Below, piece after piece: positions 6,951 to 27,898 of a stretch of 64,000 nt of DNA. The notes beneath the pieces are model-generated. The model had not been told where the DNA came from. It searched no databases and saw only the letters and a list, made by a program, of their open reading frames with translations. The DNA is from an uncultured Candidatus Saccharibacteria bacterium (GTDB taxonomy: Bacteria; Patescibacteriota; UBA1384; 2-12-FULL-50-11). Made by a program: the position numbers and the translations under genes. The stretch is taken from contig CAYHNZ010000001.1 of assembly GCA_964358205.1 (NCBI GenBank), positions 3,168 to 67,167 of the forward strand, in the 5' to 3' direction. Position 1 is the first letter of the stretch. Each line of letters begins with the position of its first letter.

Positions 6951-7042
6951 TTATTGTTGACGGCCACCCTGTTTTAACGCATTGTTAAAGCACATGGAGG
7001 GTTTGTTTATATCCACTTACATGGGAGAGGGGGTTTTAGAGT

Positions 7043-10000
7043 ATGGCTCCACAGATTCAACGTGCCAGACGGCGATTTGACGGAGTTTACCAAGCCACTA
7101 GGGGAAAAATCCTTTGCGAGTACAATCTCCACCCAGTCAGGTTCTTCTCGGTATTTTTTTCCGTAGTTGTGTTACTCGGAGTAATCGCCTTCTTTAAGCC
7201 GGTTAGTGCCAGTATCGGTCTGCATCTAGACCAACGGGAGCTACAAAACAAATACCCGAATTTTTGGACATTGGCCGAACAAAAGAAGATCTCTCCAAGC
7301 AGCGATAAATATTTTATTGGAGACGAGCCGGTAGTGCCAAGTTCAAGCCCAGTTGTACTGGCCGTGGCCAGCGATTCTACAAACATTGAAGTAACCGCCG
7401 ACAGCGCGCACGAAGATATTGGTCAAAATCCTAACCAGTTCACAAAAAGCGTTAGCGTCGAACAGGTTGAAAGGGGGACGAAAATCTCCCAAAAGGAGAC
7501 CGATGGGCAAGCTGGCCTGTACAGAATCAAAGCCCAAGACAGGGTGACCGGTGCTGTTACGGCTGAAGAAACCATCGCTTGGGGGGTATTGGCGTTCAAC
7601 CCAGACTATTCAATCTACCCGACTGATACATCCGCCACTTTGGCGATGGCGGTCCTTGATGACCGAGGCAAGATGATCTGTGACGCCTCGCTGACGATCG
7701 AGATTACCGATCCAAACGGCAACAAAAAAATCTTATCGACCGAAAATGAGCTAGTGCTGGTAAATAATGCGTGTCTAATCTACGGCCCTACTTCTGAACC
7801 AGATTATATTGCCAATTATCAAACCGGCACTGAAGGCGATTATCAAGTCACGATAAAGGCACGTGTAGGAAGCGGTGTACGAACGCTCCACGACAAGTTT
7901 TCAGTTAAAGATAATCAGCCGTTTTACTTGCAGCGAGTCGGGGCGACTCGGACTTTTCCGAACGCTGAATATGTCTACAAACTTAATTTTCAGCCCAAAG
8001 TTGACGGCCAATATCAACTCACCGAAACTGTGCCGGCCGAGTTCATTATTTCCGACACCAGCGCCAAGATTACAGAGGTCGGTGATGTCAAAAAATTAGT
8101 CTGGCAAGTTGACGCCAAAGCTAAAGCAGACCAAACGTTGATGTTCGGTTACAAAGGGCCGCTCAAATCACCGCATCTTTATACTTTCGGCCCCGCCGAA
8201 GTCAGCTATGTCGCTGACGCTCGCTCTTCGTCGATAACTCAAAGTCAGCAATCAGCCAGCCGCAAGCTGCAAGCTGAAAGCTGGACCGAACCTCGGGCCT
8301 GGCAGATCGCCTCCGATGCGCCCTCCACCGTCAACTGGGATGGCAGCTCAAGTGCCAACTGGTCAGATGGCGCCAACTGGTCAACCAATGCCATACCACA
8401 GGCTGGCGACAACTTAGTTTTCCCGGCTGGTGCTGCAAATAAATCCAATTCCAACGATCTCGGCGAAAATATGCTGTTTAACTCGATTACTTTTAATGAC
8501 AGTGGCTACACCCTGGCTGGCAACACAATTATTGTCGGCCAAGGATTAAACGGCATCACCGACGCCGTAGTTTCTGGCGGAAACACCATTAGTCTTAACT
8601 TGCGCGTTGATGTAACTCGTTGGTTAACTGTCACCAATAGCGGTGAAACGTTAACAATTTCGGGAACGATTGCTGGCGTTGGCGGTATCACCAAAGAAGG
8701 TCAAGGCAAGTTGGTTCTATCTGGCGCAAATACCTACGGCGGCGTCACCAAAATTAACGGCGGTGATATTAGCGCACGAAGCAACACGGCTCTCGGCACC
8801 ATCGCCACCGGCACGGAAGTTGTAGGAGAAGCGGCGTTAGAATTACAAGGCACAATCGCTATCGGTCGCGAGCCGCTAACGCTGCGTGGCTACGGCGAAT
8901 CGAGCGGCGGCGCGCTTAAGAACGTTTCGGATAGTAATAGTTTTGATGGGCTGATCACTATTGCCGGTATCGCTGAAATTCAATCTGATTCTGGCACACT
9001 CACGCTAAACGGCGGCGTCACTGGTGCGGCAATCCCACTTGTTCTTGATGGGGCTGGCAATATTACGTTTGCCAAAGCCCCGGTCGCAAACACCAGCGGC
9101 TTAATCACTAAAAACGGCGCCGGGACGCTAACGTACAATTTCCCTAACACCTATACTGGTTTGACAACCGTCAATGCCGGGACGCTGACCTACGGGGTCG
9201 ATAACGCGATACTGTCTGGTGGTATCACCGTTAACGGCGGGACTGTCGATATCGCCACGTTCTCCGATATGGTCGGAACGGTGACGCTCGGGACGCTGGC
9301 CGGTGGGAGCGGCATTATTACTGGCTCGACCGGTGTGTTGAGCAGTGCGTCGTATGTGGTGTATGTCGGAACGATTAGCGCCATTATCGCCGGTGACGGT
9401 GGCACTTTAGCGAAATCGACCCCGGGAACGGTGACCCTAACTCGTCCAAATCTATTCAGCGGTGCGACCACGGTCACCGTCGGCACCCTGAAGATTCAAG
9501 ACAGCTTGGCGCTGGGCGTGATCGACGGCATTACCACTGTTTCCGCCGGTGCGACGTTGCAAGTTGATGGCACTGGCTTGTCGATCCCCGAATTTATAAC
9601 TATCTCGGGTGTCGGCCTTTTAAACCAAGGTGTGATCTGGAATTCAACCGGCAGCAACACCGTTACTGGCCTGGTGACCATGGCGGCCGCTTCAACTATT
9701 AAGGCTGATGTTAGTACTACCATTACGTACGCGACGAACGGTTTCACTGGAGCGTTCGGCTTAACCGTCAACGGGGATGGAGACACGACAATTTCCGGGC
9801 CGATTGCGACGACGAGCGGTACGCTCTCAAAAAATGGCCCTGGCACGCTCACCCTCACCGCCTTCAATCCCTACACCGGGGCCACCACAATCAATACCGG
9901 CACGCTCACCTTGAACAGTAACGGCGCCATCACTATGTCAGCTTCGATCGCCATCAACTCAAACGGGAAACTAATCGCTGATAACAGCAGCGTGGTCACT

Positions 10001-13000
10001 GATCGCATTGGCGACGCTGTCGCCGTCTCCATGAACGGTGGCTCTTGGGACTTTTACGGTAGCTCCAGTACCAATACGCTCGCGACCGCCGGCACGCTCA
10101 CGATGACCGGCGGGAAGAATGCCATCACCGTTTTTGCCGGTACCGGCGGTTACACGATTATGCGGTTTGCTTCATTTTCCCGGACCGCTGGCGCCAGAGG
10201 CCTATTTCGAGGTGCTAGTCTGGGCGCGACCCCAGCGGCCAACGTGGCCACAATTTTGTTCACCACGGCTCCAACGCTGCTCGGCGACGATGGCGTGGCC
10301 GGGACCTCGGCCGTCAGTATTATGCAGGGCGTATTTGGTGACAACTCAACCTCCGGAACTGGGACCGACATGGTCACCTACGGTCGCGGCAACAATAATG
10401 GCTTACGGCTCTTGAACGGCGCTGGCTTCAGCAATGAATACACCACAAATTTCTTGACCACCAACGCTAATATTAAAATCTCGTCCGCTACCGCCGCTAT
10501 CACTTCGCAAATTAATTCGCTCATTCTCGATTCCGGCGCCAGTATCACTAACCCCGGTTCGGCCCAAACAATCACTTTTATGTCCGGCAATATTCTTAAC
10601 CTTGAGGCTAGCGGGTCGATTGCCGGTGCTAACACCACCCTGGCCGCCGGAGCGGTTGAGTTTAGTATTAGCACGCCCCAAAGCCTCACGATCTCGTCTC
10701 TCATTACTACCACGGGCGGACTGACCAAAGGCGGCACAGGCACACTAACCTTCTCTACCGCCAAGACGTACACCGGTCTGACTTCGGTTAACGATGGAAC
10801 CTTGATCTACGGCATTAACGATGCGATTAGCTCGGGTGCGGTTACAGTCAACGACGCCACCTTAGATATCGCTACTTTTACTGACACTGTTGGGGCGGTC
10901 GTGGTCCAAGGCGGCACCATTACCGGGACTAGCGGTGTCCTGACAGCAACCTCCTACGATCTTCGGGCCGCCACGATAAATGCAATTTTAGCAGGCTCAG
11001 GAACGCTAACCGTGGTAAACACCAACGAACGCACCGATGCCGTCACGACGCTATCTAGGGACAATACCTTTACTGGTTCGATTGCGCTGACGAGTGGAGT
11101 CTTAAAGCTTGGTGGTGCTGGCGGTGGATCAAACACCCCCTTGGGGACAACTGCGGCAGGCATTACGATGACGAGCGGGGCGATGTTAGATCTGAATGGC
11201 TACACGCTTGTAACGAGTGAAGCAATTTCAGCGACCGGCACTGGCATTGCTCTACAGGGCGCAATTATTAACAGCTCAGCGAGTACGGTCACATATAACG
11301 GTGTGATTACGCAAACCGCGGCTGCTCGGATTGGGGCAAATTATGGGAAGATTATCATCGGGACCGGCGGCATCACTGGCACCTTTAACCTAACTCTTGG
11401 TGGCTTTGGCGATATTGACGTGACGAGTGCTATCACTATTAGCACCGGCACGATCACCAAAGACGGTTTCGGAATTTACACACCTTCAAGTGCGAGTTCT
11501 ACATACACCGGTCTGACGACGGTTAGCGCCGGAACACTGAAGCTTGGAGTTTCGGGCGGTGCAACGAATACCCCGTTGGGGACTAATGCTGGCGGTGTGA
11601 CCGTTACCGCCGGTGCGACGCTTGATATGAATGGCTTCTCTTTGGCGACAGTCGCCGATACCTTAACGATAAATGGAACTGGTTCCGGGACCGGAGATTT
11701 TGCAGCTGGCGCATTGGTGAATTCATCTGGAACGGGCGTTACATATGTCGGGGCTATCGTTCTCGGCTCAGCGACAACCGTCAAATCAAACTCTGGAACA
11801 ATCACCCTAACAACCGGCGGTATTACGGGTGCGTTTGCCTTAACGCTGGGTGGTACGGCGAGTAGTACAATTTCTGGTGTGATCGCGACCGCTGCCGGGA
11901 CGATCATCAAGATTGATACCGGGACGTGGACGTTGTCGAGCGTAAATACCTACACGGGCGCAGCGACAATTTACCAAGGAACAATTAAGAATGGGATCGC
12001 CGCTGCGGCCGGCGGTGGTCCGCTAGGGACGGCTGCTGGGGCAACAACAATTTTTAGCGGCGGCGTACTAGACATGAATGGTTTTTCGCTTAGCGCCTTA
12101 GCAGAAGGGTTAACGATCAACGGCTTCGGCATCGAGAGCGGTGGCGCCATGGTCAATAACTCTGGAAGCGGCGTAACCTATTTGGGGACACGGGCCCTCG
12201 GGTCTGACACTCGAACCACCAACTCCGGCGCCGGCCTGTTAACCCTAAGTGGAATTCAGAGCGGCGCCTTTGAATCTCGCTACGGGGGAGCGGGCAATAT
12301 CACCATTTCGGTGGCGATTGCCGCGACCGCCTCATCATTCTGGAAAGATGGGGCCGGAACAGTCATCTTGAGCGCCGCTAACGGTCATACCGGGGTGACG
12401 ACGGTCGCGGCTGGGACCTTACAATACGGTATTCTCAACACGCTGGCAGCTGGCGCGGTGGTAGTGAACGGCGGAACGCTCAACATCGTTTCGTTTAGCG
12501 ATACGGTCGGTGCGGTGACGTTAGTTGACGGTATGATTTCAGGTACAACCGGAATATTAACAGCAACCGGATACACTTTTGAAAGTGGCACGATCAGCGG
12601 AATTATCGCTGGTGCGGTGGCCGTCAATAAGTACACGGCCGGTACGGTTGTCATCTCCGGCGTCGAAACGATCTCCAGTACCCTGACTATCCACGCCGGA
12701 ACAATCGAGATCAGCGGCTCTGGTTCGGCGGTCGGTGTCACGGCAATTACTATCAACCTCGGTGCGACCTTAACGCTTGATAATTCAACGACGGCTGTGG
12801 CCAGTCGTCTGCTTGATACGATTGTCCTGACCATGAACGGCGGTAATTTTAATTACAAGGGCAATACCGCCAGCACCGCCGCCGAGACGATCGGACAGCT
12901 CCTTTTTTCATCTGGTCACAACACGGTTACCGTGACGCCGGGCGCCGGCGGATCGACGACGCTGACGGCGGCGACTAACCCGGGCATCAATCGTACGGCC

Positions 13001-16000
13001 GGCGCGACAGTGTTGTTTCGTGGGACAAGTCTTGGCTCGACCCCGGCCGCCAACATCTCGACCTTAAAGTTTACAACGGCGCCGATCGTTGTCGGCGGCG
13101 GCGGCGGTACGGGTACCACCACCATCAGTATTATCAAAGGCGCGTATGGGGACAATTCCCTGACTGGAACAGGGACAGACATGGTGACCCATAACGTTGG
13201 GAACACCAACGGTTTGCGACTTCTGAACGGACCTGGGTTTTCCGGTGAGTATGCAGCGAACCTGGGTACCGCTAGTGCCAACGTGAAATTGACAGGGGAT
13301 ACGGCCGCCACGACGACCAATACCAATTCGATTGTTCTGAACGGTGGCGGCGTCACGAACGCCTCGGTGACGTTGCCGATCGCCGCCACCGCCTTAGCCG
13401 GAAACATTTTAATTGCGACCGCCCATAACATTGCCGGCGCGAATACGGTGCTTGGTATAACAACATTCGAACTCAATGTTTTAGCGAACGCGGCCTCAAC
13501 CGTTTCGGCCACCGTTGGTACGGCCACGACTGGGTCGCTTACCCTGAGCGGGAGCGGGAATGTGACCTTTAGCGCGGCGAATCCATATACCGGTACAACC
13601 TTTATTAATAATGCGACGTATACCTATGGCGTGGCTAACGCGATCAGTTCCGGTGCGGCAACGGTGATTGGCGGCACCTATAATCTTAACGGCAACTCCG
13701 ATACGATCGGCGCCCTGAACGCGACAGGTGGCACCATTGCCACCGGCGCGGGCACCTTAACGCTTGGCGGTACTGTCACTACCGTCGCCAACGCCAATGT
13801 AACCTCGATAATTACTGGGAACCTCGCGCTGGGGGCAAACCGAATCTTTAACGTTGGTGACGGCCTGGTCGATAACGACCTCGTTGTTTCGGCGACGGTC
13901 ACCGGCGCCTTTACCGTGACGAAAAGTACGGGCACTGGGGTCTTAGTATTATCGGCGACCGACAGTACCTATAGCGGTAGCACCACGATTAGCACCGGAA
14001 CGTTTCGGTTCGGCAGTGGGGGGAGTGGCGCTAACGGTCCGCTCGGGACGACGGCCGCGGCGACTATTATTTCTAGCGGTGCGTCTCTTGATCTGAATGG
14101 CTATTCGTTAGCGACTGCCGAAGGACTGACTATCAGCGGTACGGGTGTTGGGGCAAACGGGGCAATTATGAACACATCATCGGCCGCCGCAACTTACCAG
14201 GGTCTAATAATCCTCGGCGCGGCGGCAACGATTACGTCGAACTACGGCGATATTACCATTTCCAATACCGGCAGTATGACTGGTACCGGATTTGCGTTGA
14301 CCTTGCGCGGTGCCGGGAATGGTTCAATAGCCACTCAAGTCAATACTTCCACGGGTGGTTCAAGGGTTAAAAATGGCTTAGGCACCTGGACGGTTTCGGG
14401 CGATGGTGGCTACACCGGCGTAACGACAATTACTCTGGGCGTATTAAAACTGGGTGCGGCTGGTGGCGCGACTAATACGCCGCTCGGCACAACCGGTACC
14501 AATACGACGATTGCCAGCGGAGCGATGCTGGACTTAAATGGTTTTACTCTTGGTACGGCCGAGCCCTTATCGATACAAGGCACCGGTATCGCCAACGCCG
14601 GGGCGATTACAACCAGCTCGGGGATCGCGACGAGTTACTCGGGGGCAATTACGATTGCGACCGCTTCCCGTATAACGAACTATGGCAACGGGACATTCTC
14701 ACTCAGCGGTGCAATTGCAGGCGGTGCCGTGGCCTTAACGACCGTCAACGCGCCGGGAACAATTACCCAGACAAGCGCCAGCGTCTGGTCGGGTACGACA
14801 TCGTCTCTCACAAAAGAAGGCTGGGGGACGACGATTTTGGCGGGTCAAAACTCAATCACTGGCTCGATGACCGTCAGTTCCGGCACTCTCCAGCTCGGGG
14901 CAAACGGCGGCGCGGCGAATACTCCGACCGGGACTATTGCCGGAGGCGTGATTGTTTCGGCCGGTGCCGTGTTTGATTTGAGCACCTTCGTGTTGGGCGG
15001 CGCATCCACCTGGGAGCCACTAACCCTTAACGGTTCGGGCATCAAAAACGGCGGCGCCTTAATTAGTGCCGCCACCAGCGGTAATAACTTTGGCGTGGTG
15101 ACTTATGGATCGAGTGCCCGCGTCGTCAACAACGCTTCGGGGACGATTACCTTTGTCGGTGCGCCAACCGGAACCTTTAACTACGTTTTCGGCGGGACAG
15201 GTCCGATCACTATTACGGGTGTAATGCCGGCGGTGGCGATTACCATCACCAAATATGACTCTGGGATCCTGCTCTTAAATGGTGCACATCTCAGCACTGG
15301 ACTGATTCGTATTAACGGCGGGACGGTCAGATACGGCGTGGCCAATGCGATTCTGGTGAACGCCGTGACCATTGCCGGCGGGACGCTCGATATTAACGGT
15401 CAGACCGATGCCGTTGGTGCCATTATCCTGATGAGCGGCACGATTACCAACGGCGGCGCGGCCGCGACGCTAACTGGAACAGCCTATACGTTTTACGGGG
15501 GCGCCATTACCGCAGTGCTGGCCGGAACGGCAATCGCAATGGCGAAAAACACCGGCGCCACGCTGACGATCAACCAAGCTTTGACGAATACCGGTACCTT
15601 AACTATCAACGCCGGCACGGTCCAGTATTTGGCTAGCAACGTCGTGGCTAACACCGCCGCGGTCATCGTGGCTGGCGGCACGCTGGATATCGGCGCGCAA
15701 ACGGATACCGTGGCCGCCGTGACCCTGACCAGCGGAGCGATCACTGGCAGTACCGGAATTTTAACCGGCACTTCCTACGCCGTTGCCAGTGGCACGATCA
15801 GCGCGATTTTAGCCGGCGCGGTTACTCTGGCCAAAACCACGGCCGGTACGGTCACGCTCTCGGGTGTGAATACGTACTCGGGCGTTACGACGATCAGCGG
15901 TGGAGTCTTAAGTGTTGGCACTATTGGTAATGGTGGTGTGGCCGGGAACCTGGGAGCGGCGCCGGCCGCCGCATCCAATATTGTTTCCAATACCGGTACC

Positions 16001-19000
16001 GGGACATTGCAATATACCGGCACGACCTCGTCGACTGACCGCAGCATTACGACGACCGCGGCGATCACTTTAAATCTTGATATTACAAATCCTGCCGCAG
16101 CGCTAACCATTTCGGGGACGACGACTGTAACGACTGCGCCGTTCACGAAAGTTGGACCAGGGACACTGATCTTGTCGGGCACGAACGGTCATACGGGGCT
16201 AACCACGGTCCTGGCTGGGACGCTAAAAGAGGGCGTCGCCAGTGCACTCTCAACGGGAGCGTTAACTGTTACGAACGGGACATTCGATCTCAATAACTTC
16301 TCGGATAGTGTCGGGACAACCACTCTTACTAACGGTGGGCAGATGATCGATTCCGGCGGTACGACCGCGGTTTTGACTAGTACAGCAACTTACGCATTGC
16401 AAAGCGGTAAGATCAGCGCCCGACTGGGTAGCGCCGTTGCTGCCGGTATCTCTAAAACGACAACGGATCGGGTTATTCTTTCCGGCGACAATACGTTTAC
16501 CAGCACCTCTATAGCCTTGAGTGCCGGCGCCCTGAACCTTCAAAGCAACAACGCGCTCGGCGCTGCCGGTACGACCTTAACGACCACCATTACCTCGGGC
16601 GCGGCTCTGGAAACCCAAAATAATATTACGATTCCCAGCACCAAGCCAATTACGGCTAACTTGGGCGGCGTTAACAACAGTGGCGCAATTAGGAATATCG
16701 CCGATGCCAATACGATTCAAGCCAACATCGTGCTTGGTGTGACCAACACTCGGGTGAACTCGGACAGCGGCACCCTCACCTTCCCAACCGTCTCCGGTAA
16801 CACCAACAATTTAATTGTGGGCGGCGCCGGCAATACGACAGTTACCGGTATTATTAGCACTACATCTGGCACCTTAACCAAAGACGGTGCAGGCACATTG
16901 ACGCTTCAAGGCAATAACAGTTATACGGGTCTGACAACGATCAGCGCCGGTGTCGTGAATGTTCGGCATGCCGCAGGTCTTGGCACAATTGCGGCCGGTA
17001 CCTCCGTCGCCGCTGGCGCGGCCCTGCAAATACAAGGGATCGTCACCGTTGGCGCCGAAACGTTAACGCTCAATGGCACGGGCGTTGCCAGCGACGGAGC
17101 GTTAAGAAATATCACCAACAATAATACTTATCAGGGTAATATTACTCTCAATACTACCAGTTCGATTGGCTCCGATGCCAACACGCTCACTCTAAGCGGA
17201 ACAATAACTGGCGGTGCATCCATTGGCTTAACTAAAGTTGGTGCCGGCGAGGTGTCAGCTTCCAATACGGTCACGGTTGGTGGCGACCTAACGATTTCAG
17301 CGGGAACCTTAACTGCCTCCAGCAACACCATTACGGTTAGCGGTAACTGGTCTAATAGCGGCACATTTACGGCCGGCGCGAGTACGGTGGTATTAAATGG
17401 GGGCGCCACCCAGACTTTATCCGGAACCATGACCACCACCAGCGCATTTAACAACCTAACCGTGACTAACGCCTTCGGTACCAACGCCTCGGACTGCGAA
17501 CGAACCAGCTTTGTGGCCTCGATCGATTTCGATGCTGCGGCCACGGTGACAACAAACCTAGTCTTTACGACCGCCAGTACCAGGGTGGAATTCAACAGCG
17601 GGTCAACCTATGCTTTTACCAACATCAACTGGAACGGTCAGGCATCAGGTACGAAAATTTACTTCCGCAACTCGGACGCTTCCGGTACCTGGTTATTAAA
17701 AGTCACCGGCACCCAAACTGCGGTCTCGTTTATTAATGTCTCCCGCTCCGACGCATCGGTCGTCGGCGGTAACGCCATTGTCGCCAACGACGGCACCAAC
17801 ACCGATTGCACCAATAACACCAACTGGACATTCCCGAGTAGCAATACTGCCCCAAATGCGCCAACTAGCTTGGCCCAAAAGCGCACAACCGATGTGGCGC
17901 TCGCCACCGGTGATTGGACCAATGAAACATCCGTTAAGTTTACGGCAACCGCCAGCGACACCGATAATCCCGACACACTGAAGCTCTGTATTGAAGCAAT
18001 TGCGATTGCCAGCAATTTTACTAACACCGACACCGGCTGTGGAAGCTTAACCGCCTATAGCGGTACACCAATCACTGTTACCGTCACCTTGTCTGGCCTA
18101 GTTACCAGTACCGAGTACAAATGGCAGGCGAGAATCAAGGACACGGCTGATGCCGCTTCGGCCTGGAGCGATTACGCCGCCAATGGGTCTAGTCGCGATT
18201 TTGGTGTTGATACAACCGCTTGTACGACCGCCACCGTTTACGATGGCAGTTCCGCTGGTGTAGATGCCGACTTTAACGATAGCTCGCTAACGGCGCTATC
18301 AGGCAACTGGGATGCTTTTACTTGTACTGTTTCGGGTCTGCAGAAGTATGAGTACTCAATCGGCGTGACCGCCGGCGGTACGACAATCAAGGGCTGGACC
18401 GATAACTCGACGACAGCATCGGTCACCGCCGGTAGCTTGATTTTACACACTAATGAGCTCTATTTCATTAACATCCGAGCGACCGACAACGCCAGCAACG
18501 TTTCGTCAGTGGTGTCGTCTAATGGCCAACAGGTTTTACCGTCGTTAAGTTTTACTATGGGCAGTAACACGATTAGCTTTACTAATTTAAATAGCACCAA
18601 CAACCGACTCGACACTAAAACCGTTAGTCTAACCACCAGCACTAATGCTTTCGGCGGTTATATTATTCGCCAGTACGCCGGTGGCTTACTAACCGACGGT
18701 ACCAATACCATACCGATGTTCTCGGCTGGCTCGTACGCCGCACCAGCTTCGTGGGGGACAGGGTTTTGCTCGGGTACAACTTGTGGTTACGGCTATACAT
18801 CTAACGACACAACTATCCAAGGCAGCAACTTATTTAGTAGTGGCACGCTTTATGCCCCCTTTAGCCAAACTCCTTCTGGCGATATTGTGGCCGATCACAC
18901 CGCCGCCGTTGACGGTACGAGCGGTGCAGTTAGCAACGAGTCGTTCACTATTACCCATAAAGTCGCCGTAACCGCTCTACAAGCGGCCAAAACCTATCAA

Positions 19001-19036
19001 GCAACAGTCTACTTGATTGTCACTGGCACTTTTTAA
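7043..19036 (+). CDS. Giant (3,997 aa) cell-surface repeat protein: N-terminal TM/signal anchor, >30 autotransporter-associated beta-strand (PATR-like) repeats 'TxTGxTxVNxGTLxLG', C-terminal Ig/FN3-like region
   Basis: Single uninterrupted ORF; repeated units such as 'NTYTGLTTVNAGTLTYGV', 'NSYTGLTTISAGVVNV', 'NPYTGATTINTGTLTL' throughout. Confidence 0.85.
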   Translation: MAPQIQRARRRFDGVYQATRGKILCEYNLHPVRFFSVFFSVVVLLGVIAFFKPVSASIGLHLDQRELQNKYPNFWTLAEQKKISPSSDKYFIGDEPVVPSSSPVVLAVASDSTNIEVTADSAHEDIGQNPNQFTKSVSVEQVERGTKISQKETDGQAGLYRIKAQDRVTGAVTAEETIAWGVLAFNPDYSIYPTDTSATLAMAVLDDRGKMICDASLTIEITDPNGNKKILSTENELVLVNNACLIYGPTSEPDYIANYQTGTEGDYQVTIKARVGSGVRTLHDKFSVKDNQPFYLQRVGATRTFPNAEYVYKLNFQPKVDGQYQLTETVPAEFIISDTSAKITEVGDVKKLVWQVDAKAKADQTLMFGYKGPLKSPHLYTFGPAEVSYVADARSSSITQSQQSASRKLQAESWTEPRAWQIASDAPSTVNWDGSSSANWSDGANWSTNAIPQAGDNLVFPAGAANKSNSNDLGENMLFNSITFNDSGYTLAGNTIIVGQGLNGITDAVVSGGNTISLNLRVDVTRWLTVTNSGETLTISGTIAGVGGITKEGQGKLVLSGANTYGGVTKINGGDISARSNTALGTIATGTEVVGEAALELQGTIAIGREPLTLRGYGESSGGALKNVSDSNSFDGLITIAGIAEIQSDSGTLTLNGGVTGAAIPLVLDGAGNITFAKAPVANTSGLITKNGAGTLTYNFPNTYTGLTTVNAGTLTYGVDNAILSGGITVNGGTVDIATFSDMVGTVTLGTLAGGSGIITGSTGVLSSASYVVYVGTISAIIAGDGGTLAKSTPGTVTLTRPNLFSGATTVTVGTLKIQDSLALGVIDGITTVSAGATLQVDGTGLSIPEFITISGVGLLNQGVIWNSTGSNTVTGLVTMAAASTIKADVSTTITYATNGFTGAFGLTVNGDGDTTISGPIATTSGTLSKNGPGTLTLTAFNPYTGATTINTGTLTLNSNGAITMSASIAINSNGKLIADNSSVVTDRIGDAVAVSMNGGSWDFYGSSSTNTLATAGTLTMTGGKNAITVFAGTGGYTIMRFASFSRTAGARGLFRGASLGATPAANVATILFTTAPTLLGDDGVAGTSAVSIMQGVFGDNSTSGTGTDMVTYGRGNNNGLRLLNGAGFSNEYTTNFLTTNANIKISSATAAITSQINSLILDSGASITNPGSAQTITFMSGNILNLEASGSIAGANTTLAAGAVEFSISTPQSLTISSLITTTGGLTKGGTGTLTFSTAKTYTGLTSVNDGTLIYGINDAISSGAVTVNDATLDIATFTDTVGAVVVQGGTITGTSGVLTATSYDLRAATINAILAGSGTLTVVNTNERTDAVTTLSRDNTFTGSIALTSGVLKLGGAGGGSNTPLGTTAAGITMTSGAMLDLNGYTLVTSEAISATGTGIALQGAIINSSASTVTYNGVITQTAAARIGANYGKIIIGTGGITGTFNLTLGGFGDIDVTSAITISTGTITKDGFGIYTPSSASSTYTGLTTVSAGTLKLGVSGGATNTPLGTNAGGVTVTAGATLDMNGFSLATVADTLTINGTGSGTGDFAAGALVNSSGTGVTYVGAIVLGSATTVKSNSGTITLTTGGITGAFALTLGGTASSTISGVIATAAGTIIKIDTGTWTLSSVNTYTGAATIYQGTIKNGIAAAAGGGPLGTAAGATTIFSGGVLDMNGFSLSALAEGLTINGFGIESGGAMVNNSGSGVTYLGTRALGSDTRTTNSGAGLLTLSGIQSGAFESRYGGAGNITISVAIAATASSFWKDGAGTVILSAANGHTGVTTVAAGTLQYGILNTLAAGAVVVNGGTLNIVSFSDTVGAVTLVDGMISGTTGILTATGYTFESGTISGIIAGAVAVNKYTAGTVVISGVETISSTLTIHAGTIEISGSGSAVGVTAITINLGATLTLDNSTTAVASRLLDTIVLTMNGGNFNYKGNTASTAAETIGQLLFSSGHNTVTVTPGAGGSTTLTAATNPGINRTAGATVLFRGTSLGSTPAANISTLKFTTAPIVVGGGGGTGTTTISIIKGAYGDNSLTGTGTDMVTHNVGNTNGLRLLNGPGFSGEYAANLGTASANVKLTGDTAATTTNTNSIVLNGGGVTNASVTLPIAATALAGNILIATAHNIAGANTVLGITTFELNVLANAASTVSATVGTATTGSLTLSGSGNVTFSAANPYTGTTFINNATYTYGVANAISSGAATVIGGTYNLNGNSDTIGALNATGGTIATGAGTLTLGGTVTTVANANVTSIITGNLALGANRIFNVGDGLVDNDLVVSATVTGAFTVTKSTGTGVLVLSATDSTYSGSTTISTGTFRFGSGGSGANGPLGTTAAATIISSGASLDLNGYSLATAEGLTISGTGVGANGAIMNTSSAAATYQGLIILGAAATITSNYGDITISNTGSMTGTGFALTLRGAGNGSIATQVNTSTGGSRVKNGLGTWTVSGDGGYTGVTTITLGVLKLGAAGGATNTPLGTTGTNTTIASGAMLDLNGFTLGTAEPLSIQGTGIANAGAITTSSGIATSYSGAITIATASRITNYGNGTFSLSGAIAGGAVALTTVNAPGTITQTSASVWSGTTSSLTKEGWGTTILAGQNSITGSMTVSSGTLQLGANGGAANTPTGTIAGGVIVSAGAVFDLSTFVLGGASTWEPLTLNGSGIKNGGALISAATSGNNFGVVTYGSSARVVNNASGTITFVGAPTGTFNYVFGGTGPITITGVMPAVAITITKYDSGILLLNGAHLSTGLIRINGGTVRYGVANAILVNAVTIAGGTLDINGQTDAVGAIILMSGTITNGGAAATLTGTAYTFYGGAITAVLAGTAIAMAKNTGATLTINQALTNTGTLTINAGTVQYLASNVVANTAAVIVAGGTLDIGAQTDTVAAVTLTSGAITGSTGILTGTSYAVASGTISAILAGAVTLAKTTAGTVTLSGVNTYSGVTTISGGVLSVGTIGNGGVAGNLGAAPAAASNIVSNTGTGTLQYTGTTSSTDRSITTTAAITLNLDITNPAAALTISGTTTVTTAPFTKVGPGTLILSGTNGHTGLTTVLAGTLKEGVASALSTGALTVTNGTFDLNNFSDSVGTTTLTNGGQMIDSGGTTAVLTSTATYALQSGKISARLGSAVAAGISKTTTDRVILSGDNTFTSTSIALSAGALNLQSNNALGAAGTTLTTTITSGAALETQNNITIPSTKPITANLGGVNNSGAIRNIADANTIQANIVLGVTNTRVNSDSGTLTFPTVSGNTNNLIVGGAGNTTVTGIISTTSGTLTKDGAGTLTLQGNNSYTGLTTISAGVVNVRHAAGLGTIAAGTSVAAGAALQIQGIVTVGAETLTLNGTGVASDGALRNITNNNTYQGNITLNTTSSIGSDANTLTLSGTITGGASIGLTKVGAGEVSASNTVTVGGDLTISAGTLTASSNTITVSGNWSNSGTFTAGASTVVLNGGATQTLSGTMTTTSAFNNLTVTNAFGTNASDCERTSFVASIDFDAAATVTTNLVFTTASTRVEFNSGSTYAFTNINWNGQASGTKIYFRNSDASGTWLLKVTGTQTAVSFINVSRSDASVVGGNAIVANDGTNTDCTNNTNWTFPSSNTAPNAPTSLAQKRTTDVALATGDWTNETSVKFTATASDTDNPDTLKLCIEAIAIASNFTNTDTGCGSLTAYSGTPITVTVTLSGLVTSTEYKWQARIKDTADAASAWSDYAANGSSRDFGVDTTACTTATVYDGSSAGVDADFNDSSLTALSGNWDAFTCTVSGLQKYEYSIGVTAGGTTIKGWTDNSTTASVTAGSLILHTNELYFINIRATDNASNVSSVVSSNGQQVLPSLSFTMGSNTISFTNLNSTNNRLDTKTVSLTTSTNAFGGYIIRQYAGGLLTDGTNTIPMFSAGSYAAPASWGTGFCSGTTCGYGYTSNDTTIQGSNLFSSGTLYAPFSQTPSGDIVADHTAAVDGTSGAVSNESFTITHKVAVTALQAAKTYQATVYLIVTGTF

Positions 19037-19109
19037 TAACCAACGAAGCGACGCAAATCAACTCTAGCTTGACAGTTGCCAAAGAAAATAATTACAGTAA
19101 AGTTACAGC

Positions 19110-20207
19110 ATGAGGGGAACAACGCTGCGACGTTTCGGAATATATTTATCAATCACAGTTCTTTTAGTCGCCTTTAGCCCAATTCAGGATACGGCTTTGG
19201 CGGCGGCCATTAGTACTGCTTCCGACACAATGTCCACCATCAAGCAGAGCGTTAACGCTGACCACACCATTCAGTTCATCACTCCTACTGGTGTCGCGGC
19301 CGGCGAAACTATTACTTACGCCTTCCCAACCGGTTTTACCCTGCTGGCCGAAGCGGTTAATAACTTTGACTTTGCCGTCAGTGCCGCTGGCTCGTGTGCC
19401 AGCTTTACCGATAAAGCTCTGGCCCTAACCGCTTCTGGTGCAACCTGGGGGTTAGACGTCACCAGCCAAACCATCACCGTTACATCGGGAACAGATACCA
19501 TCGCTGCTGGTCGTTGCGTGCAGCTAGAAGCTGGCACAGTTGCCACCGACGGCACCACTGGTGCGGCTAACACCATTGTCAACCAGACGGCGGTCCAAAA
19601 TACCACCGACGCCAAAATAGTAATTGATGGTAGTATGGTCGATACCGGTACGATTGCCGTCGAAATTGTGACCGACAACACCTTGGCGGTCACTGCCACC
19701 GTTGACCCAAGCATTACTTGTGCCGTCGATGGTAACATCGCCCAATTTGGGACGTTTGTGACCAGCACGGTTGACACCGCCAGTCAAACGCCGATCTGGA
19801 CCATTAGCACTAACGCCAACACTGGCTACAACTTGTCGGTTAAATCGGCCGGCAATGCCACCAACGCTGGACTATATAGTTCCTCTGCCGCCTATGTAAT
19901 CAAGTCGGCTGACGGTTCTGAAAACTCAACGGCTGACTTAAGCGTGGCCGCGACGATCGGTTATGGTATGCAGGCAAGCAAAGCGAACGGCGACGCCGGC
20001 TCCGCCGCGTCCACTATTTCATCGCCTTACACGTCAACTAGCGATACGGTTGGTCGCTTACAGCTCACTGCGCAAACCGTCTCGTCAGCCGGTGGGCCAG
20101 TTTCCAACGCCACCGTTACCACGACACTTAAAGCCAAAGTCACTGGTTTAGTGCCACCCGGCGCCTACGTTGATACCCTTACTTACGTTTGCAGCGGAAT
20201 CTATTAA
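19110..20207 (+). CDS. Secreted Thr/Ala/Ser-rich beta-rich protein of unknown function (signal peptide)
   Basis: N-terminal signal 'LSITVLLVAFSPIQDTALAAA'; composition typical of surface beta-sandwich proteins. Confidence 0.5.
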   Translation: MRGTTLRRFGIYLSITVLLVAFSPIQDTALAAAISTASDTMSTIKQSVNADHTIQFITPTGVAAGETITYAFPTGFTLLAEAVNNFDFAVSAAGSCASFTDKALALTASGATWGLDVTSQTITVTSGTDTIAAGRCVQLEAGTVATDGTTGAANTIVNQTAVQNTTDAKIVIDGSMVDTGTIAVEIVTDNTLAVTATVDPSITCAVDGNIAQFGTFVTSTVDTASQTPIWTISTNANTGYNLSVKSAGNATNAGLYSSSAAYVIKSADGSENSTADLSVAATIGYGMQASKANGDAGSAASTISSPYTSTSDTVGRLQLTAQTVSSAGGPVSNATVTTTLKAKVTGLVPPGAYVDTLTYVCSGIY

Positions 20208-20211
20208 TCTG

Positions 20212-21222
20212 ATGAGGCAGCGTCTCCACCTGCTTACCAAACTCTTTTTGGCTCTTTTGGTGGGTGGCGTTATTTTTATTTCGGCTACTCGGGCACAAAC
20301 TGACACCGGCATTACTTTCGGTATAACGATTGCGCCAGTTATAGACGAATTTAGCTCTGAATCGGGAACAACAACGTCGCGAACAATCAAGATTACTAAT
20401 CCCATTCAGGAGGTGGTCACCCTTTATCCACAAGCGCTTAATATTTACTCCGATAACGACAAGGGTCAGCCAAAATTTTACAGCCTGAACGAACGTAACT
20501 CGCGCTACTCTGTTTCCGACTGGATTACATTCTCCAAGCCGTTAATAAGGATTGCGCCAGGTGAAGTTGAAGAATTTGCCTACAAGCTAACCGTCCCCAA
20601 GGATGCCGAGCCCGGTGGCCATTACGGTGCGGTGCTGTTTTCAACCAAACCGCCAGTTGTCCAAACACCAGACCCTAAAAATAGTCAAGTCAGCGTGGTT
20701 GGTCTAATCGGCACGCTCGTACTGCACACGGTTCCTGGAGCGGTCGTTCAGAAAGCAACTCTAACTAATTACTCTGCGCCAACAATTTTAATCCGGGCAC
20801 CAGCCAATTTTTCACTAACTTTCCAGAACACCGGTAATGTTCATATTAAACCAGTTGGCGAGATAAAGGTTCGCAATCTTTTTGGGGAAGTAACGACCAG
20901 CCTGAAGGTCAACGACGGCGGCGGTAGCGTTCTGCCGGAAAGCACTCGAAAATATGAAACCAGCTGGAAATTTAACTGGCAGCAGATCGGTAAATTTACC
21001 GCCTCTGCCGTCGTTACTTTTGGTACACCCGAGCAGCAAATAATCTCTGTTAGAACCTTTTACATCATTCCAGTTTGGTCGCTAGTGTTATCTGGCCTGA
21101 TTATATTAATAATTATTTGGTTGATTTTCCGGCGCCAACGCCGAGCGAAAACTATGCCACCGCCACCAACCTCACCACCGTCACCACCGGAACCAAAACG
21201 ACCAGGATTTGCGATGCGCTAA
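20212..21222 (+). CDS. Cell-surface protein with signal peptide, C-terminal TM anchor followed by RRQRR and Pro-rich tail; architecture resembles DUF916/DUF3324-type surface proteins
   Basis: 'LFLALLVGGVIFISATRAQT' signal; C-terminal 'IIPVWSLVLSGLIILIIIWLIFRRQRRAKTMPPPPTSPPSPPEP'; start set at internal ATG 20212. Confidence 0.45.
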   Translation: MRQRLHLLTKLFLALLVGGVIFISATRAQTDTGITFGITIAPVIDEFSSESGTTTSRTIKITNPIQEVVTLYPQALNIYSDNDKGQPKFYSLNERNSRYSVSDWITFSKPLIRIAPGEVEEFAYKLTVPKDAEPGGHYGAVLFSTKPPVVQTPDPKNSQVSVVGLIGTLVLHTVPGAVVQKATLTNYSAPTILIRAPANFSLTFQNTGNVHIKPVGEIKVRNLFGEVTTSLKVNDGGGSVLPESTRKYETSWKFNWQQIGKFTASAVVTFGTPEQQIISVRTFYIIPVWSLVLSGLIILIIIWLIFRRQRRAKTMPPPPTSPPSPPEPKRPGFAMR

Positions 21223-21612
21223 TTAAATAAACCAACGGCTAACGATTCTCCAGATCCGTTTTAATAGAGCGGGAATTGGTCGCTCGTCGCGTTGATAAAC
21301 CAAGCCGGGTTTGGAAAAATTAAGACTGGACTTGATTGACTGATATTGCTCGATAATTGATTGCGAATAAGGAACTTCTTTACCGTCGACTTCGCCCAAC
21401 ACTACTCGAGGTCGAGTTTCCTCGGCGGTATTGCTAATGATTTTTTGGATAGTCAAATTTTGATCGACCACAATTATTCGCTGGGGCAGAACTGTTGCAA
21501 CTACTGTGATTGTGCTTGAGGTGGTTTCGGTCGCCAACAGTAGTGCGTTAGCCAGTAGCACCGTCAATAAGGTGATGAGGCCGTAGCTAATTAGGTTGAG
21601 ACTCCTTTTCAT
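21223..21612 (-). CDS. Small signal-anchored protein, unknown function
   Basis: ORF with N-terminal hydrophobic segment 'LISYGLITLLTVLLANALLLA'. Confidence 0.35.
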   Translation of the reverse strand: MKRSLNLISYGLITLLTVLLANALLLATETTSSTITVVATVLPQRIIVVDQNLTIQKIISNTAEETRPRVVLGEVDGKEVPYSQSIIEQYQSIKSSLNFSKPGLVYQRDERPIPALLKRIWRIVSRWFI

Positions 21613-21614
21613 AG

Positions 21615-22061
21615 CTAAAATCTCACCACCTTAGCGTACACCAAATACCCGCTCGTGGAGTCATTTGGAAAGAATGGAAACATAATATAGAACCGATGAT
21701 CGATAAAGAGGCGATACGGCCGTAAGCGTTTTAACGACTGCTCGGGACTCTCATTGAGCACGCCAAGTGAAGACGCTCGTGAGATGCCAATGAAATTTGG
21801 TTGGGGTAAATCCTGACCGTTGCTGTAAGAAACCGTCAGGTTATCTATCTGCTGATAATACAGTTTAAATTGCTTGGCTATCGTGGCTATCTTAGCCGAA
21901 TCACCTTCAGTGAAAGCGGTAAAAATCTCTCTATTGCCTATAAGTTTTTGATACCGAGAATTAGCGCGCTCGCTGGCCAAGAACCAACTACCGACAAGTA
22001 AAAGCAGAAAAATAGTACCCAATAAAACCCACCGATCACGAATTGATCGTTTCTTCGTCAT
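21615..22061 (-). CDS. Membrane-anchored protein, unknown function
   Basis: ORF with N-terminal TM 'WVLLGTIFLLLLVGSWFLA'; 26-nt overlap with upstream gene. Confidence 0.35.
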   Translation of the reverse strand: MTKKRSIRDRWVLLGTIFLLLLVGSWFLASERANSRYQKLIGNREIFTAFTEGDSAKIATIAKQFKLYYQQIDNLTVSYSNGQDLPQPNFIGISRASSLGVLNESPEQSLKRLRPYRLFIDHRFYIMFPFFPNDSTSGYLVYAKVVRF

Positions 22062-23073: not shown

Positions 23074-23165
23074 ATTCACTTTACCACATTGCCGGGTAGT
23101 ATTTTCCTCACCCAAGAGACGGGTAATTGACTCTGGTTTATGATAAAATTGCAGAAGTATTTTCG

Positions 23166-23217
23166 CTCCGGGATCGGCTAAGGGCAGGCCTGCAGAATCT
23201 GGATCTGCCAACCTTGG
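23166..23217 (+). other. tRNA-Gln(CUG)-like 5' fragment (acceptor 5', D arm, anticodon arm, variable loop and T-stem 5' strand; lacks T loop and 3' acceptor)
   Basis: 'CTCCGGGATCGGCTAAGGGCAGGCCTGCAGAATCTGGATCTGCCAACCTTGG' aligns to the full tRNA-Gln at 23281. Confidence 0.55.
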
Positions 23218-23245
23218 CCCGCCCCGCACTTTACAGTCGTTATGC

Positions 23246-27896: not shown

Positions 27897-27898
27897 TA

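What the first reader, a model, noticed from the sequence alone, without database searches (positions are those of the whole stretch)
7043..21222. 3,997-aa PATR-repeat surface protein followed by two secreted/anchored proteins resembling a surface-complex locus
One uninterrupted 12-kb ORF encodes an N-terminally anchored protein built from dozens of autotransporter-type beta-strand repeats (TYTGxTTVNAGTLxLG). Internal DNA repeats are strong enough to cause assembly risk. Downstream lie a secreted Thr/Ala-rich beta protein and a protein with signal peptide, C-terminal TM and Pro-rich tail, an architecture like the DUF916/DUF3324 partners of Firmicutes WxL surface complexes. Giant repeat adhesins of this kind are typical of episymbiotic lineages.
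Basis: partly seen in the sequence, partly recalled or inferred. Interest (0 to 1): 0.5.

Follow-up and report, generated by a model that had tools for sequence, protein, structure and literature searches.

The report
Giant adhesin on a CPR pilus
A 3,997-residue repeat protein from a groundwater ultra-small (CPR) bacterium ends in a pilin-type domain and sits next to a pilin gene and a membrane-anchored chaperone gene, so it is most likely carried at the tip of the recently described "Pam" pilus, giving a testable lead on how these episymbionts grip host cells.

Summary
The three ORFs exist as described: 7043-19036 (3,997 aa), 19110-20207 (365 aa) and 20212-21222 (336 aa). The claimed strong DNA repeats do not. 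There is no tandem repeat, the best direct pair is 84 nt at 70%, and three assemblies are collinear.

ORF2 is a divergent Pam-type pilin of CPR bacteria (signal peptide, beta-sandwich, linker, C-terminal domain). ORF3 is a two-Ig-domain protein with a C-terminal membrane helix. No WxL-domain protein is present, however.

The main new point concerns the last 168 aa of the giant protein. They are homologous to the pilin C-terminal domain (hhalign 98%, E 1e-13; 54% pairwise identity in a Nomurabacteria locus). The giant lacks the pilin N-domain and linker. At least 311 protein clusters, mostly 1,000-3,700 aa, carry this domain, and the 150 best-scoring ones I examined all carry it at the extreme C-terminus.

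Best reading (confidence about 0.6): a minimal Pam-type donor-strand pilus with the PATR giant as tip adhesin. This is a new variant of a very recently described kind. Assembly itself is inferred, not shown.

The parts
7043..19036 (+). Giant surface protein, 3,997 aa. Proposed pilus-tip adhesin.
   Evidence: ORF list and translation. The same product is called in an independent assembly. Other assemblies are collinear.
7043..7213 (+). Extended N-terminal leader. It has the basic motif RRRFDGVY (aa 9-16), a hydrophobic segment at aa 33-52, and a possible signal-peptidase site VSA|S.
   Evidence: Hydropathy scan. The motif [LIVFM]D[GT][ILV]x occurs in the first 50 aa of 29 of 121 full-length giants with the same C-terminal domain, against 0.7% background. 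Cleavage is inferred, not tested.
7214..8329 (+). N-terminal non-repeat region (aa 58-429). Possible distal binding head.
   Evidence: No family hit. The role is inferred only from its position.
8330..17722 (+). PATR-repeat body (about aa 430-3560), T/G/A/S-rich. Presumed beta-helical stalk; its structure was not modelled here.
   Evidence: PF12951 (138 bits) and TIGR02601 (184 bits), 15 stretches each. Motif positions and composition. DNA-level repeats are weak.
17864..18487 (+). Two FN3/Ig-like modules (aa 3608-3700 and 3720-3815) linking the repeat body to the C-terminal domain.
   Evidence: AlphaFold2 model with pLDDT 94.7. Foldseek finds tandem FN3 structures.
18530..19033 (+). C-terminal Pam-pilin-type domain of the giant (aa 3830-3997), ending in an aromatic residue. 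Proposed donor-strand acceptor.
   Evidence: hhalign of the giant C-terminal family against the pilin family gives 98.1%, E 9.9e-14, end-to-end to both C-termini. 9 of 23 relatives hit NF058581 CPR_Pam_pilin_C. Pairwise identity is 54% (E 2.6e-52) in L007. There are 311 representative clusters; in the best 150 the domain is always at the extreme C-terminus and none has a pilin N-domain.
19069..19098 (+). Sigma-70-like site TTGACA-18-TACAGT in the 73-nt gap before the pilin gene.
   Evidence: Best consensus match (10 of 12) in 6700-21700. This is a consensus match only.
19110..20207 (+). Pam-type pilin, 365 aa. Signal peptide aa 1-33 (19110-19208), N-domain aa 34-183 (19209-19658), linker / putative donor strand aa 184-201 (19659-19712), C-domain aa 202-365 (19713-20204).
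   Evidence: NF058581 at 24.3 bits over profile positions 2-148 of 148, below the 55-bit cut-off. 27 of 34 relatives hit it, best 7e-31, and 7 hit the PamT model. The AF2 model (pLDDT 91.9) shows two beta domains with an unstructured linker. The linker VTATVDPSITF is the most conserved stretch. Cys204 and Cys361 covary.
20212..21222 (+). Membrane-anchored WxLIP-like protein, 336 aa; putative chaperone. Signal peptide; domain 1 aa 35-168 (20314-20715, PGGHYG motif); domain 2 aa 169-280 (20716-21051, NTGNVH motif); TM aa 285-306 (21064-21129); Pro-rich tail ending FAMR.
   Evidence: PF06030 at 25.2 bits. 29 of 34 relatives hit PF06030. The family profile matches PDB 9i25_C EfmWxLIP1 at E 9e-4 over both domains. 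Invariant motifs. Hydropathy. In 72 of 79 related loci a gene with the pilin C-domain lies directly upstream.

Best explanation
The three genes form a minimal Pam-type pilus operon of a CPR/Patescibacteria bacterium from groundwater.

Proposed mechanism. Apart from the domain architecture, every step is inferred:
1. All three products are exported by Sec.
2. ORF3 stays in the membrane through its C-terminal helix. Its two Ig-like domains cap the incomplete C-terminal beta-domain of newly exported subunits.
3. The giant protein has that acceptor domain at its very C-terminus, which is the last part to leave the translocon and so emerges next to the membrane. It has no pilin N-domain or linker. 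It can therefore accept a strand but not donate one, and it should start the fibre as the distal tip subunit.
4. The linker strand of ORF2 displaces the chaperone from the giant's C-domain. Further ORF2 copies add in the same way at the base.
5. This pushes the roughly 3,100-aa PATR stalk and its N-terminal head outward as a host- or surface-binding adhesin.

No PamR-type anchor gene lies in the operon. The base is then either held by the chaperone itself, anchored by a protein encoded elsewhere, or the fibres are shed.
For: Shown by computation:
- ORF2 belongs to a CPR-only family continuous with the NCBIfam Pam pilin models. It has the published pilin architecture: a signal peptide, a beta-sandwich N-domain, a conserved linker that the monomer model leaves unstructured, and a C-domain (preprint 10.64898/2026.03.03.709456).
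- The giant's last 168 aa are homologous to the pilin C-domain. Evidence: hhalign 98.1%, E 1e-13; NF058581 hits in relatives; 54% identity at E 3e-52 between giant and adjacent pilin in L007; 28% identity at E 3e-16 in L084.
- None of the 150 best-scoring proteins with this C-domain has a pilin N-domain. All 150 carry it within 10 aa of the C-terminus, and 122 are 1,000 aa or longer.
- The last residue is F or Y in 34 of 34 pilins and 147 of 147 giants.
- Synteny. The order giant, then 1-4 pilins, then WxLIP-like gene recurs in Saccharimonadia-, Berkelbacteria- and Nomurabacteria-labelled genomes. 72 of 79 loci have a C-domain gene directly upstream of the chaperone-like gene.
- Short C-domain-only (PamT-like) genes occupy the same position as the giant in 21 loci. 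They never co-occur with a giant in the 79 loci.
- ORF3 has the architecture published for PamC/PamD (two beta domains plus a C-terminal TM helix). [quoted passage not shown]
- In other loci, the proteins downstream of the chaperone gene begin with linker-like strands (VTVTATV and similar) and end in a TM helix, as expected for PamR-like anchors.

Established elsewhere: PamA and PamB polymerise by donor-strand exchange (cryo-EM).
Against: - ORF2 itself scores 24.3 bits against a 55-bit cut-off for NF058581. It is a divergent member.
- I could not obtain the PamC/PamD sequences, so the identity of ORF3 with those chaperones rests on architecture and synteny.
- No complex was modelled, so strand insertion of ORF2 into the giant's C-domain is not shown.
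- The giant's N-terminal hydrophobic segment may be an uncleaved anchor, which would not fit a free tip subunit.
- The operon has a single pilin and no PamR-like anchor.
- The absence of co-occurrence between giants and PamT-like genes is not statistically significant (by my own estimate about 1.9 overlaps expected by chance, P of none about 0.1).
Confidence: 0.6

Rival explanations
1. A static WxL-like surface complex rather than a fibre. ORF3 would be a permanent membrane anchor whose strand completes the C-terminal domain of the giant, and separately of ORF2. Both would be tethered to the cell surface one-to-one, as proposed for WxLIP and small/large WxL proteins in Firmicutes.
For: ORF3 is homologous to WxLIP over both domains. 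The gene set parallels small WxL + large WxL + WxLIP (PMC10599100). There is only one pilin and no PamR-like terminator in the operon.
Against: No WxL domain is found in ORF2 or in 34 of its relatives, nor by Pfam in the giant. ORF2 has the full Pam pilin architecture, with a highly conserved linker that would have no role in a static complex. Its family grades into pilins shown by cryo-EM to polymerise. Many related loci carry 2-4 pilin paralogues plus anchor-like proteins with donor-like N-terminal strands.
Confidence: 0.22
2. The giant is an independent fibrillar adhesin anchored by its N-terminal transmembrane segment. Its C-terminal domain would be a distal binding or wall-binding module, and adjacency to the pilin and chaperone genes would reflect only co-regulation of surface proteins.
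For: There is a single strong hydrophobic segment at aa 33-52, and cleavage is not proven. Giants lie downstream of the chaperone gene, not upstream of the pilin, in three loci (L015, L016, L024).
Against: The C-domain is homologous to the subunit-subunit interaction domain of the neighbouring pilin. It is invariably at the extreme C-terminus with an aromatic last residue, as in the pilins. In L007 it is 54% identical to the adjacent pilin's C-domain, far closer than in the window, which would fit the two evolving together. The passenger varies freely (PATR, laminin-G/sialidase-like, none) while the C-domain is constant.
Confidence: 0.1
3. A type V autotransporter-like adhesin, or an assembly artefact of a repeat-rich gene.
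For: PATR repeats are typical of autotransporter passengers. All assemblies are short-read.
Against: There is no beta-barrel translocator; the C-terminus is FN3-FN3-pilin domain. The homologous and syntenic loci are almost all from MAGs labelled as CPR, a group that the Pam preprint describes as lacking an outer membrane. No significant DNA repeats were found, and three assemblies are collinear with 0 gaps.
Confidence: 0.03

Closest known systems
Pam pili of Candidatus Mycosynbacter amalyticus (CPR). Troman et al., bioRxiv 2026, 10.64898/2026.03.03.709456. NCBIfam NF058581 CPR_Pam_pilin_C and NF058579 PamT.
   Same: Sec-exported two-domain pilin with an internal linker strand and an incomplete C-terminal Ig-like domain. 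A chaperone-like two-domain protein with a C-terminal TM helix. No usher. A tip subunit that has the C-domain but no linker. CPR-restricted.
   Different: The tip subunit here is a 3,997-aa PATR protein rather than a small single-domain PamT. The operon has one pilin, one chaperone and no PamR anchor. ORF2 is below the NCBIfam cut-off. The preprint text has no occurrence of the words adhesin, DUF916 or WxL.
WxL surface-protein clusters of Lactobacillales/Bacillales: small WxL, large WxL and WxLIP = DUF916-DUF3324-TM. PMC10599100; PDB 9i25/9i1y.
   Same: A three-part logic of a small protein and a large multi-domain protein sharing a C-terminal incomplete beta-sandwich, plus a TM-anchored two-Ig-domain partner predicted to complete it by strand insertion. 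ORF3 is a detectable sequence homologue of WxLIP.
   Different: No WxL domain or Trp-x-Leu motifs. The C-domains are Pam-pilin type. The small protein has an extra N-domain and a donor linker, implying polymerisation. Different phylum.
Two-domain tip adhesins of chaperone-usher pili (FimH, PapG).
   Same: An N-terminal binding part and a C-terminal pilin domain that accepts but cannot donate a strand, so the protein is incorporated first and ends up at the tip (own knowledge).
   Different: No usher and no outer membrane. No PapD Pfam hit in 34 ORF3 relatives. The donor strand is internal rather than N-terminal. The passenger is more than ten times larger.
TafC, the tip subunit of haloarchaeal Tat-fimbriae (PMC11821415).
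   Same: A minor adhesin subunit with a laminin-G-like domain at the tip of a donor-strand filament assembled at a cytoplasmic membrane. Some CPR giants with this C-domain carry laminin-G passengers, and one hits the TafC model through that domain.
   Different: The similarity lies in the passenger only. In the AlphaFold models of the tafi paper, TafC donates an N-terminal strand, which is the opposite polarity. Export is by Tat. The system is archaeal.
PATR-repeat passengers of autotransporters and other giant adhesins (PF12951 / TIGR02601).
   Same: The repeat motif and the T/G/A-rich composition. A beta-helical stalk is presumed from the repeat type, not modelled.
   Different: No translocator barrel. 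Attachment is proposed through a pilin domain. PATR-like motifs are rare among proteins with this C-domain: one of the 150 best representatives has three or more, and I did not check whether that one is the truncated copy of this same protein, P0218.

Membership tests
Pam pilus system (CPR) | Secreted pilin with a beta-sandwich N-domain, a single linker strand and an incomplete C-terminal Ig-like domain. | tested here: met
   ORF2 has a signal peptide. The AF2 model has two beta domains (aa 37-183 and 202-363) and an unstructured linker at 184-201 with a pLDDT dip. The linker VTATVDPSITF is conserved.
Pam pilus system (CPR) | C-domain matches NCBIfam NF058581 CPR_Pam_pilin_C above its curated cut-off. 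| tested here: inconclusive
   ORF2 scores 24.3 bits against a 55-bit cut-off, but covers profile positions 2-148 of 148. 27 of 34 family members hit, best 7.2e-31, and 7 hit PamT NF058579.
Pam pilus system (CPR) | Adjacent PapD-like two-domain chaperone retained by a C-terminal TM helix (PamC/PamD). | tested here: inconclusive
   The architecture is met, and the gene lies next to a pilin C-domain gene in 72 of 79 loci. The PamC/PamD sequences could not be retrieved and NCBIfam has no model for them.
Pam pilus system (CPR) | Tip subunit with an acceptor C-domain but no N-domain or linker (PamT). | tested here: met
   The giant's last 168 aa are homologous to the pilin C-domain. There is no pilin N-domain in the window's giant or in any of the 150 representative relatives. 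The sequence before the domain (VSSNGQQV) differs from the pilin linker.
Pam pilus system (CPR) | PamR-type terminator/anchor with an N-terminal donor strand and a C-terminal TM helix. | tested here: not met
   None in the operon. A motif and TM scan of the window's ORFs found no ORF that combines an N-terminal linker-like strand with a C-terminal TM helix. Such proteins are present in other loci.
Pam pilus system (CPR) | Filament formed by donor-strand exchange. | not testable with these tools
   Needs complex modelling or cryo-EM. Only single chains could be predicted.
WxL surface-protein cluster (Firmicutes) | At least two proteins with a WxL domain (dual Trp-x-Leu motifs). | tested here: not met
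   No WxL hit for ORF2 or the giant, nor for 34 ORF2 relatives at E up to 1. The A1 profile finds no WxL chain in the PDB.
WxL surface-protein cluster (Firmicutes) | WxLIP protein: DUF916 + DUF3324 + a TM helix. | tested here: inconclusive
   PF06030 at 25.2 bits against a 27.3-bit cut-off for ORF3. 29 of 34 relatives hit it. DUF3324 is not hit by Pfam, but the family profile aligns to EfmWxLIP1 residues 24-250, covering both domains, at E 9e-4. The TM helix is present.
Type V autotransporter | C-terminal beta-barrel translocator after the PATR passenger. | tested here: not met
   The C-terminal 400 aa fold as FN3-FN3-pilin domain. Only PATR was detected by Pfam and NCBIfam.
Classical chaperone-usher pili | An outer-membrane usher and a PapD_N/PapD_C chaperone. 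| tested here: not met
   No usher among the neighbouring genes. 0 of 34 ORF3 relatives hit the PapD Pfam families. One relative carries a JGI name 'chaperone PapD'.

The most novel reading that the evidence does not exclude
The Pam-pilin C-domain is a general 'tip-display tag'. Hundreds of distinct, highly variable giant CPR surface proteins (at least 311 clusters at 50% identity, up to about 3,700-4,000 aa) would be mounted on Pam-type pili through it, so host specificity of episymbionts would be set by swapping passengers. In addition, the Pam chaperones are homologues of Firmicutes WxLIP. CPR Pam pili and WxL clusters would then be two branches of one chaperone-only, usher-less donor-strand system of single-membrane bacteria.
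Probability: 0.4. Interest if true: 0.8.

Novelty: new variant of a known kind. Interest (0 to 1): 0.6.

Why it matters
How CPR/Patescibacteria find and hold their hosts is largely unknown. The 2026 Pam-pilus preprint states that it is not known how the pili contact the host envelope. A conserved pilin domain at the end of hundreds of giant, variable proteins gives a concrete candidate for the recognition element. It also gives a simple rule for finding such proteins in metagenomes: a C-terminal Pam-type domain, an aromatic last residue, and a neighbouring pilin and WxLIP-like gene.

The sequence link between the CPR chaperone-like protein and WxLIP would also bear on the poorly understood WxL clusters of enterococci, listeriae and lactobacilli. 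It suggests they may work by donor-strand complementation. Both ideas can be tested by complex modelling and by cryo-ET or proteomics of cultivated Saccharibacteria.

Tried and rejected
- Whole-model Foldseek against the PDB gave only generic tandem Ig (MSCRAMM, integrin; TM about 0.2) for ORF2 and tandem FN3 for the giant's C-terminus.
- A PDB sequence search with the pilin profile found nothing relevant, so Pam structures are not in that copy.
- The search for related loci with the pilin alignment failed because no stretch was conserved enough. The chaperone alignment was used instead.
It was redone with A4.
- The 'TafC family fimbrial protein' hit in one relative looked like a link to archaeal donor-strand fimbriae. 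It lies in the laminin-G passenger, not in the pilin domain.
- NCBIfam has no model matching the chaperone family.
- No PapD or DUF3324 Pfam hit was found in 34 relatives.
- I could not obtain the PamA-T, PamC/D or PamR sequences for direct comparison.
- The taxonomic class of the source organism was not pinned down. The nearest named relatives are Saccharimonadales MAGs.
Full report
**1. What is in the sequence**

The window carries three co-directional ORFs:
- 7043-19036, 3,997 aa;
- 19110-20207, 365 aa, after a 73-nt gap;
- 20212-21222, 336 aa, starting at an ATG 4 nt after the previous stop. The mechanical ORF list starts it at a TTG at 20170.

The flanks are housekeeping genes: dnaE, rpmA, rplS, yraN and gltX upstream, and convergent small ORFs plus tRNA-Gln downstream. 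This is therefore a chromosomal operon and not a mobile element.

The same DNA occurs in three public assemblies of Hainich groundwater 0.1-um filtrates. They are collinear over 9197-30207, 9197-20820 and 14944-23352, with no gaps and at most two mismatches. One of them calls the same 3,997-aa product.

**2. Checking the observation**

PATR repeats are real: PF12951 at 138 bits and TIGR02601 at 184 bits, with 15 scoring stretches each. They are not 'dozens'. A strict motif regex finds 9 and a loose one 20, spread through a T/G/A/S-rich body of about 3,100 aa.

The claim of strong DNA repeats fails.
- Tandem Repeats Finder reports nothing.
- The best direct pair is 84 nt at 70% identity.
- Protein self-BLAST at 1e-10 finds no internal copy.

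The N-terminus has one strong hydrophobic segment (aa 33-52) followed by VSA|S. Whether it is an anchor or a cleaved signal is open.

**3. ORF2 is a Pam-type pilin**

NCBIfam gives a sub-threshold but full-length match to NF058581 'CPR_Pam_pilin_C': 24.3 bits against a 55-bit cut-off, covering profile positions 2-148 of 148 and aa 207-365.

That model derives from a 2026 preprint (10.64898/2026.03.03.709456) reporting cryo-EM structures of two pilins of Ca. Mycosynbacter amalyticus.
- The pilins have a nine-strand N-domain, a single linker strand and an incomplete Ig-like C-domain.
- The C-domain is completed by the linker of the neighbouring subunit.
- The operon also encodes PapD-like chaperones PamC/PamD that carry a C-terminal TM helix, a C-domain-only tip subunit PamT, and a TM-anchored terminator PamR.

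ORF2 has 78 relatives, and those that carry a source name are from CPR MAGs. Of 34 aligned relatives, 27 hit NF058581 (best 7e-31) and 7 hit the PamT model. ORF2 is therefore a divergent member of a family continuous with Pam pilins.

The AlphaFold2 model (pLDDT 91.9) has two beta domains (aa 37-183 and 202-363). They are joined by an unstructured segment at aa 184-201 with a confidence dip. That segment (…LAVTATVDPS…) is among the best conserved in the family, as the preprint reports for the donated linker.

Cys204 and Cys361 covary (16 both, 16 neither, 2 single), which suggests a disulfide stapling the first and last strands of the C-domain. The last residue is F or Y in 34 of 34 sequences.

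**4. ORF3 is a WxLIP homologue with the Pam-chaperone architecture**

It has a signal peptide, two beta domains with invariant PGGHY(G/A) and NxGNxH…P.G motifs, a TM helix and a Pro-rich tail.
- PF06030 (DUF916, WxLIP_PGBD) scores 25.2 bits against a 27.3-bit cut-off for ORF3, and is hit by 29 of 34 relatives.
- A family profile aligns to residues 24-250 of the solved E. faecium WxLIP1 (9i25_C, 9i1y_A; E about 1e-3), spanning both domains.
- No relative hits the PapD families, and NCBIfam has no model for this family.

In Firmicutes, WxLIP is encoded with a small WxL protein and a large protein that has a C-terminal WxL domain. However, no WxL domain is detectable in ORF2 or its family, nor by Pfam in the giant.

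**5. The giant ends in the pilin C-domain**

The C-termini look alike by eye (…KTYQATVYLIVTGTF versus …GAYVDTLTYVCSGIY). BLASTP aligns the last 167/168 residues end to end at 25% identity (E 0.05).

Stronger evidence follows.
- The profile of the giant's C-terminal family against the pilin family gives hhalign 98.1%, E 9.9e-14, over 158 columns running to both C-termini.
- 9 of 23 relatives of the giant's C-terminus hit NF058581, each over their last ~150 residues.
- In other lineages the homology is plain pairwise. In the complete Ca. Nomurabacteria genome CP060230.1, a 2,547-aa protein ends in 173 residues that are 54% identical (E 2.6e-52) to the C-domain of the adjacent pilin. In L084 the figures are 28% and E 3e-16.
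- The AF2 model of the last 400 aa (pLDDT 94.7) is FN3, then an FN3-like module, then the C-domain.
- The hhalign match starts just after the linker. The giant has VSSNGQQV where pilins have V.VTATV, and the pilin N-domain HMM does not hit it.

**6. How general this is**

A phmmer search with the giant's last 170 aa against 1.84 billion representative proteins finds 311 clusters at E <= 1e-3 and 245 at <= 1e-10. The statistics below refer to the best 150 of these.
- All 150 have the domain within 10 residues of the C-terminus.
- 122 are 1,000 aa or longer (median 1,613, maximum 3,674).
- None has a pilin N-domain.
- Only one carries three or more PATR-like motifs.

Passengers elsewhere include laminin-G / sialidase-like domains, or nothing recognisable. 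The module is therefore constant and the passenger free.

**7. Synteny**

Scanning GTDB representative genomes with the ORF3 family found 470 relatives. The 79 loci kept are almost all from CPR MAGs. HMMs built locally show the following.
- 72 of 79 loci have a gene with the pilin C-domain directly upstream of the WxLIP-like gene.
- 7 loci have a protein of 1,000 aa or more with the C-domain at its end.
- 21 loci have a short C-domain-only (PamT-like) gene, usually in the very position the giant holds here.
- No locus has both. By my own estimate the expected overlap by chance is only about 1.9, so this is weak evidence.

The order giant, then 1-4 pilins, then chaperone also appears in loci reached through the pilin.

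In other loci, proteins just downstream of the chaperone gene often begin, after their signal peptide, with linker-like strands (VTVTATV, VSISATV, VNVSAVV). They end in a TM helix or in dockerin-like repeats, as expected for PamR-like anchors. The window's operon has none.

**8. Mechanism**

The architecture is shown. Assembly is inferred.

A subunit with an acceptor domain but no donor strand can only sit at the distal end of a donor-strand fibre, like FimH, PapG or PamT. The C-terminal position means that the acceptor domain emerges last from the translocon, next to the membrane-anchored chaperone.

I therefore read the locus as a minimal Pam-type pilus in which:
- ORF3 caps the subunits;
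- ORF2 polymerises through its linker;
- the giant is the first-incorporated tip adhesin, with the PATR stalk and the N-terminal region (aa 58-429) pointing outward.

The best sigma-70-like site of the region lies in the gap before the pilin gene. This would fit higher expression of the major subunit, but it is only a consensus match.

Rivals:
- a static WxL-like complex anchored by ORF3 (0.22);
- an N-terminally anchored independent adhesin (0.10);
- an autotransporter or an assembly artefact (0.03).

**9. Comparison and novelty**

Pam pili are known only from the 2026 preprint and the NCBIfam models. The preprint text has no occurrence of the words adhesin, WxL or DUF916. It states that host contact is not understood.

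This locus is therefore a new variant of a very recent kind. It adds two testable ideas: giant variable adhesins are displayed through a Pam-pilin domain, and the chaperone family is related to Firmicutes WxLIP.

Membership in the WxL, autotransporter and classical chaperone-usher families fails on defining features.

**10. Limits**

- No complex prediction was possible.
- The PDB copy holds no Pam structure.
- Fold searches were uninformative beyond showing Ig, FN3 and pilin-like folds.
- All assemblies are short-read.

Noticed in passing
window 7067-7108 (giant aa 9-22); also P0219-P0265 and the giants of L005, L013, L015 and L024: Giants that carry the C-terminal pilin domain share an extended N-terminal leader. 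The motif (R/K)x(L/I/F/V)D(G/T)(I/V/L)(Y/H/T) lies about 20 aa before a basic cluster and the hydrophobic segment. The core motif occurs in the first 50 aa of 29 of 121 full-length proteins, against 0.7% of other 50-aa windows. It may be a dedicated export or targeting signal for very large CPR surface proteins. I know of no described family for it.
   Followed up: partly
window 24330-29113 (+): A second surface-protein pair. The first is a 1,188-aa protein with a pectate-lyase/rhamnogalacturonase-like fold and a weak dockerin-like C-terminus. The second is a 404-aa protein with a signal peptide, a long Gly-rich linker and a C-terminal TM helix, with no Pfam hit. Proteins with dockerin-like C-termini (…DFSILLFYWTG) and linker-like N-terminal strands lie right after the chaperone gene in L007, L035 and L061, and L079 has the same kind of C-terminus with a similar but unmatched N-terminal strand. 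This hints at a cohesin/dockerin-type attachment linked to these pili.
   Followed up: no
window 19110-19208: The public gene call for ORF2 (P0001, 336 aa) starts 29 codons downstream and removes the signal peptide. Alignment with 33 relatives supports the ATG at 19110.
   Followed up: yes
window 21130-21219; alignment A2: Close relatives of ORF3 end, after a Pro-rich cytoplasmic tail, in a conserved (I/F)VMR at the extreme C-terminus (FAMR in the window). Its function is unknown.
   Followed up: no
window 19069-19098: The best sigma-70-like match of the 15-kb region (TTGACA-18-TACAGT) sits between the giant gene and the pilin gene, only about 11 nt before the ATG. It may be a separate promoter for the major subunit, or a chance match.
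   Followed up: no
P0210 aa 45-200: One giant-type C-terminal fragment hits NCBIfam 'TafC family fimbrial protein' (5.5e-14). The match lies in its laminin-G domain. TafC is the proposed tip adhesin of haloarchaeal Tat-fimbriae, which also assemble by strand donation. This is an analogy in passenger choice, not homology of the pilin part.
   Followed up: yes
L053, L064, L080, L081, L082, L088 (genes just downstream of the chaperone gene): Proteins of 1,100-1,400 aa begin with a pilin-type N-domain (HMM E 1e-28 to 1e-42) but have no pilin C-domain. They are the mirror image of the giants studied here, and may be base or anchor subunits, or a different display mode.
   Followed up: no
window 29613-30300 (-): A PIN-domain / PhdYeFM antitoxin pair downstream of the surface-protein genes, according to the precomputed Pfam hits on the identical contig L001.
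   Followed up: no
window 23712-24188 (-): A 158-aa ORF with a weak match to PBECR3, a phage Barnase-EndoU-ColicinE5/D-RelE-like nuclease (E 1.6e-4, below cut-off), next to tRNA-Gln at 23281-23352.
   Followed up: no
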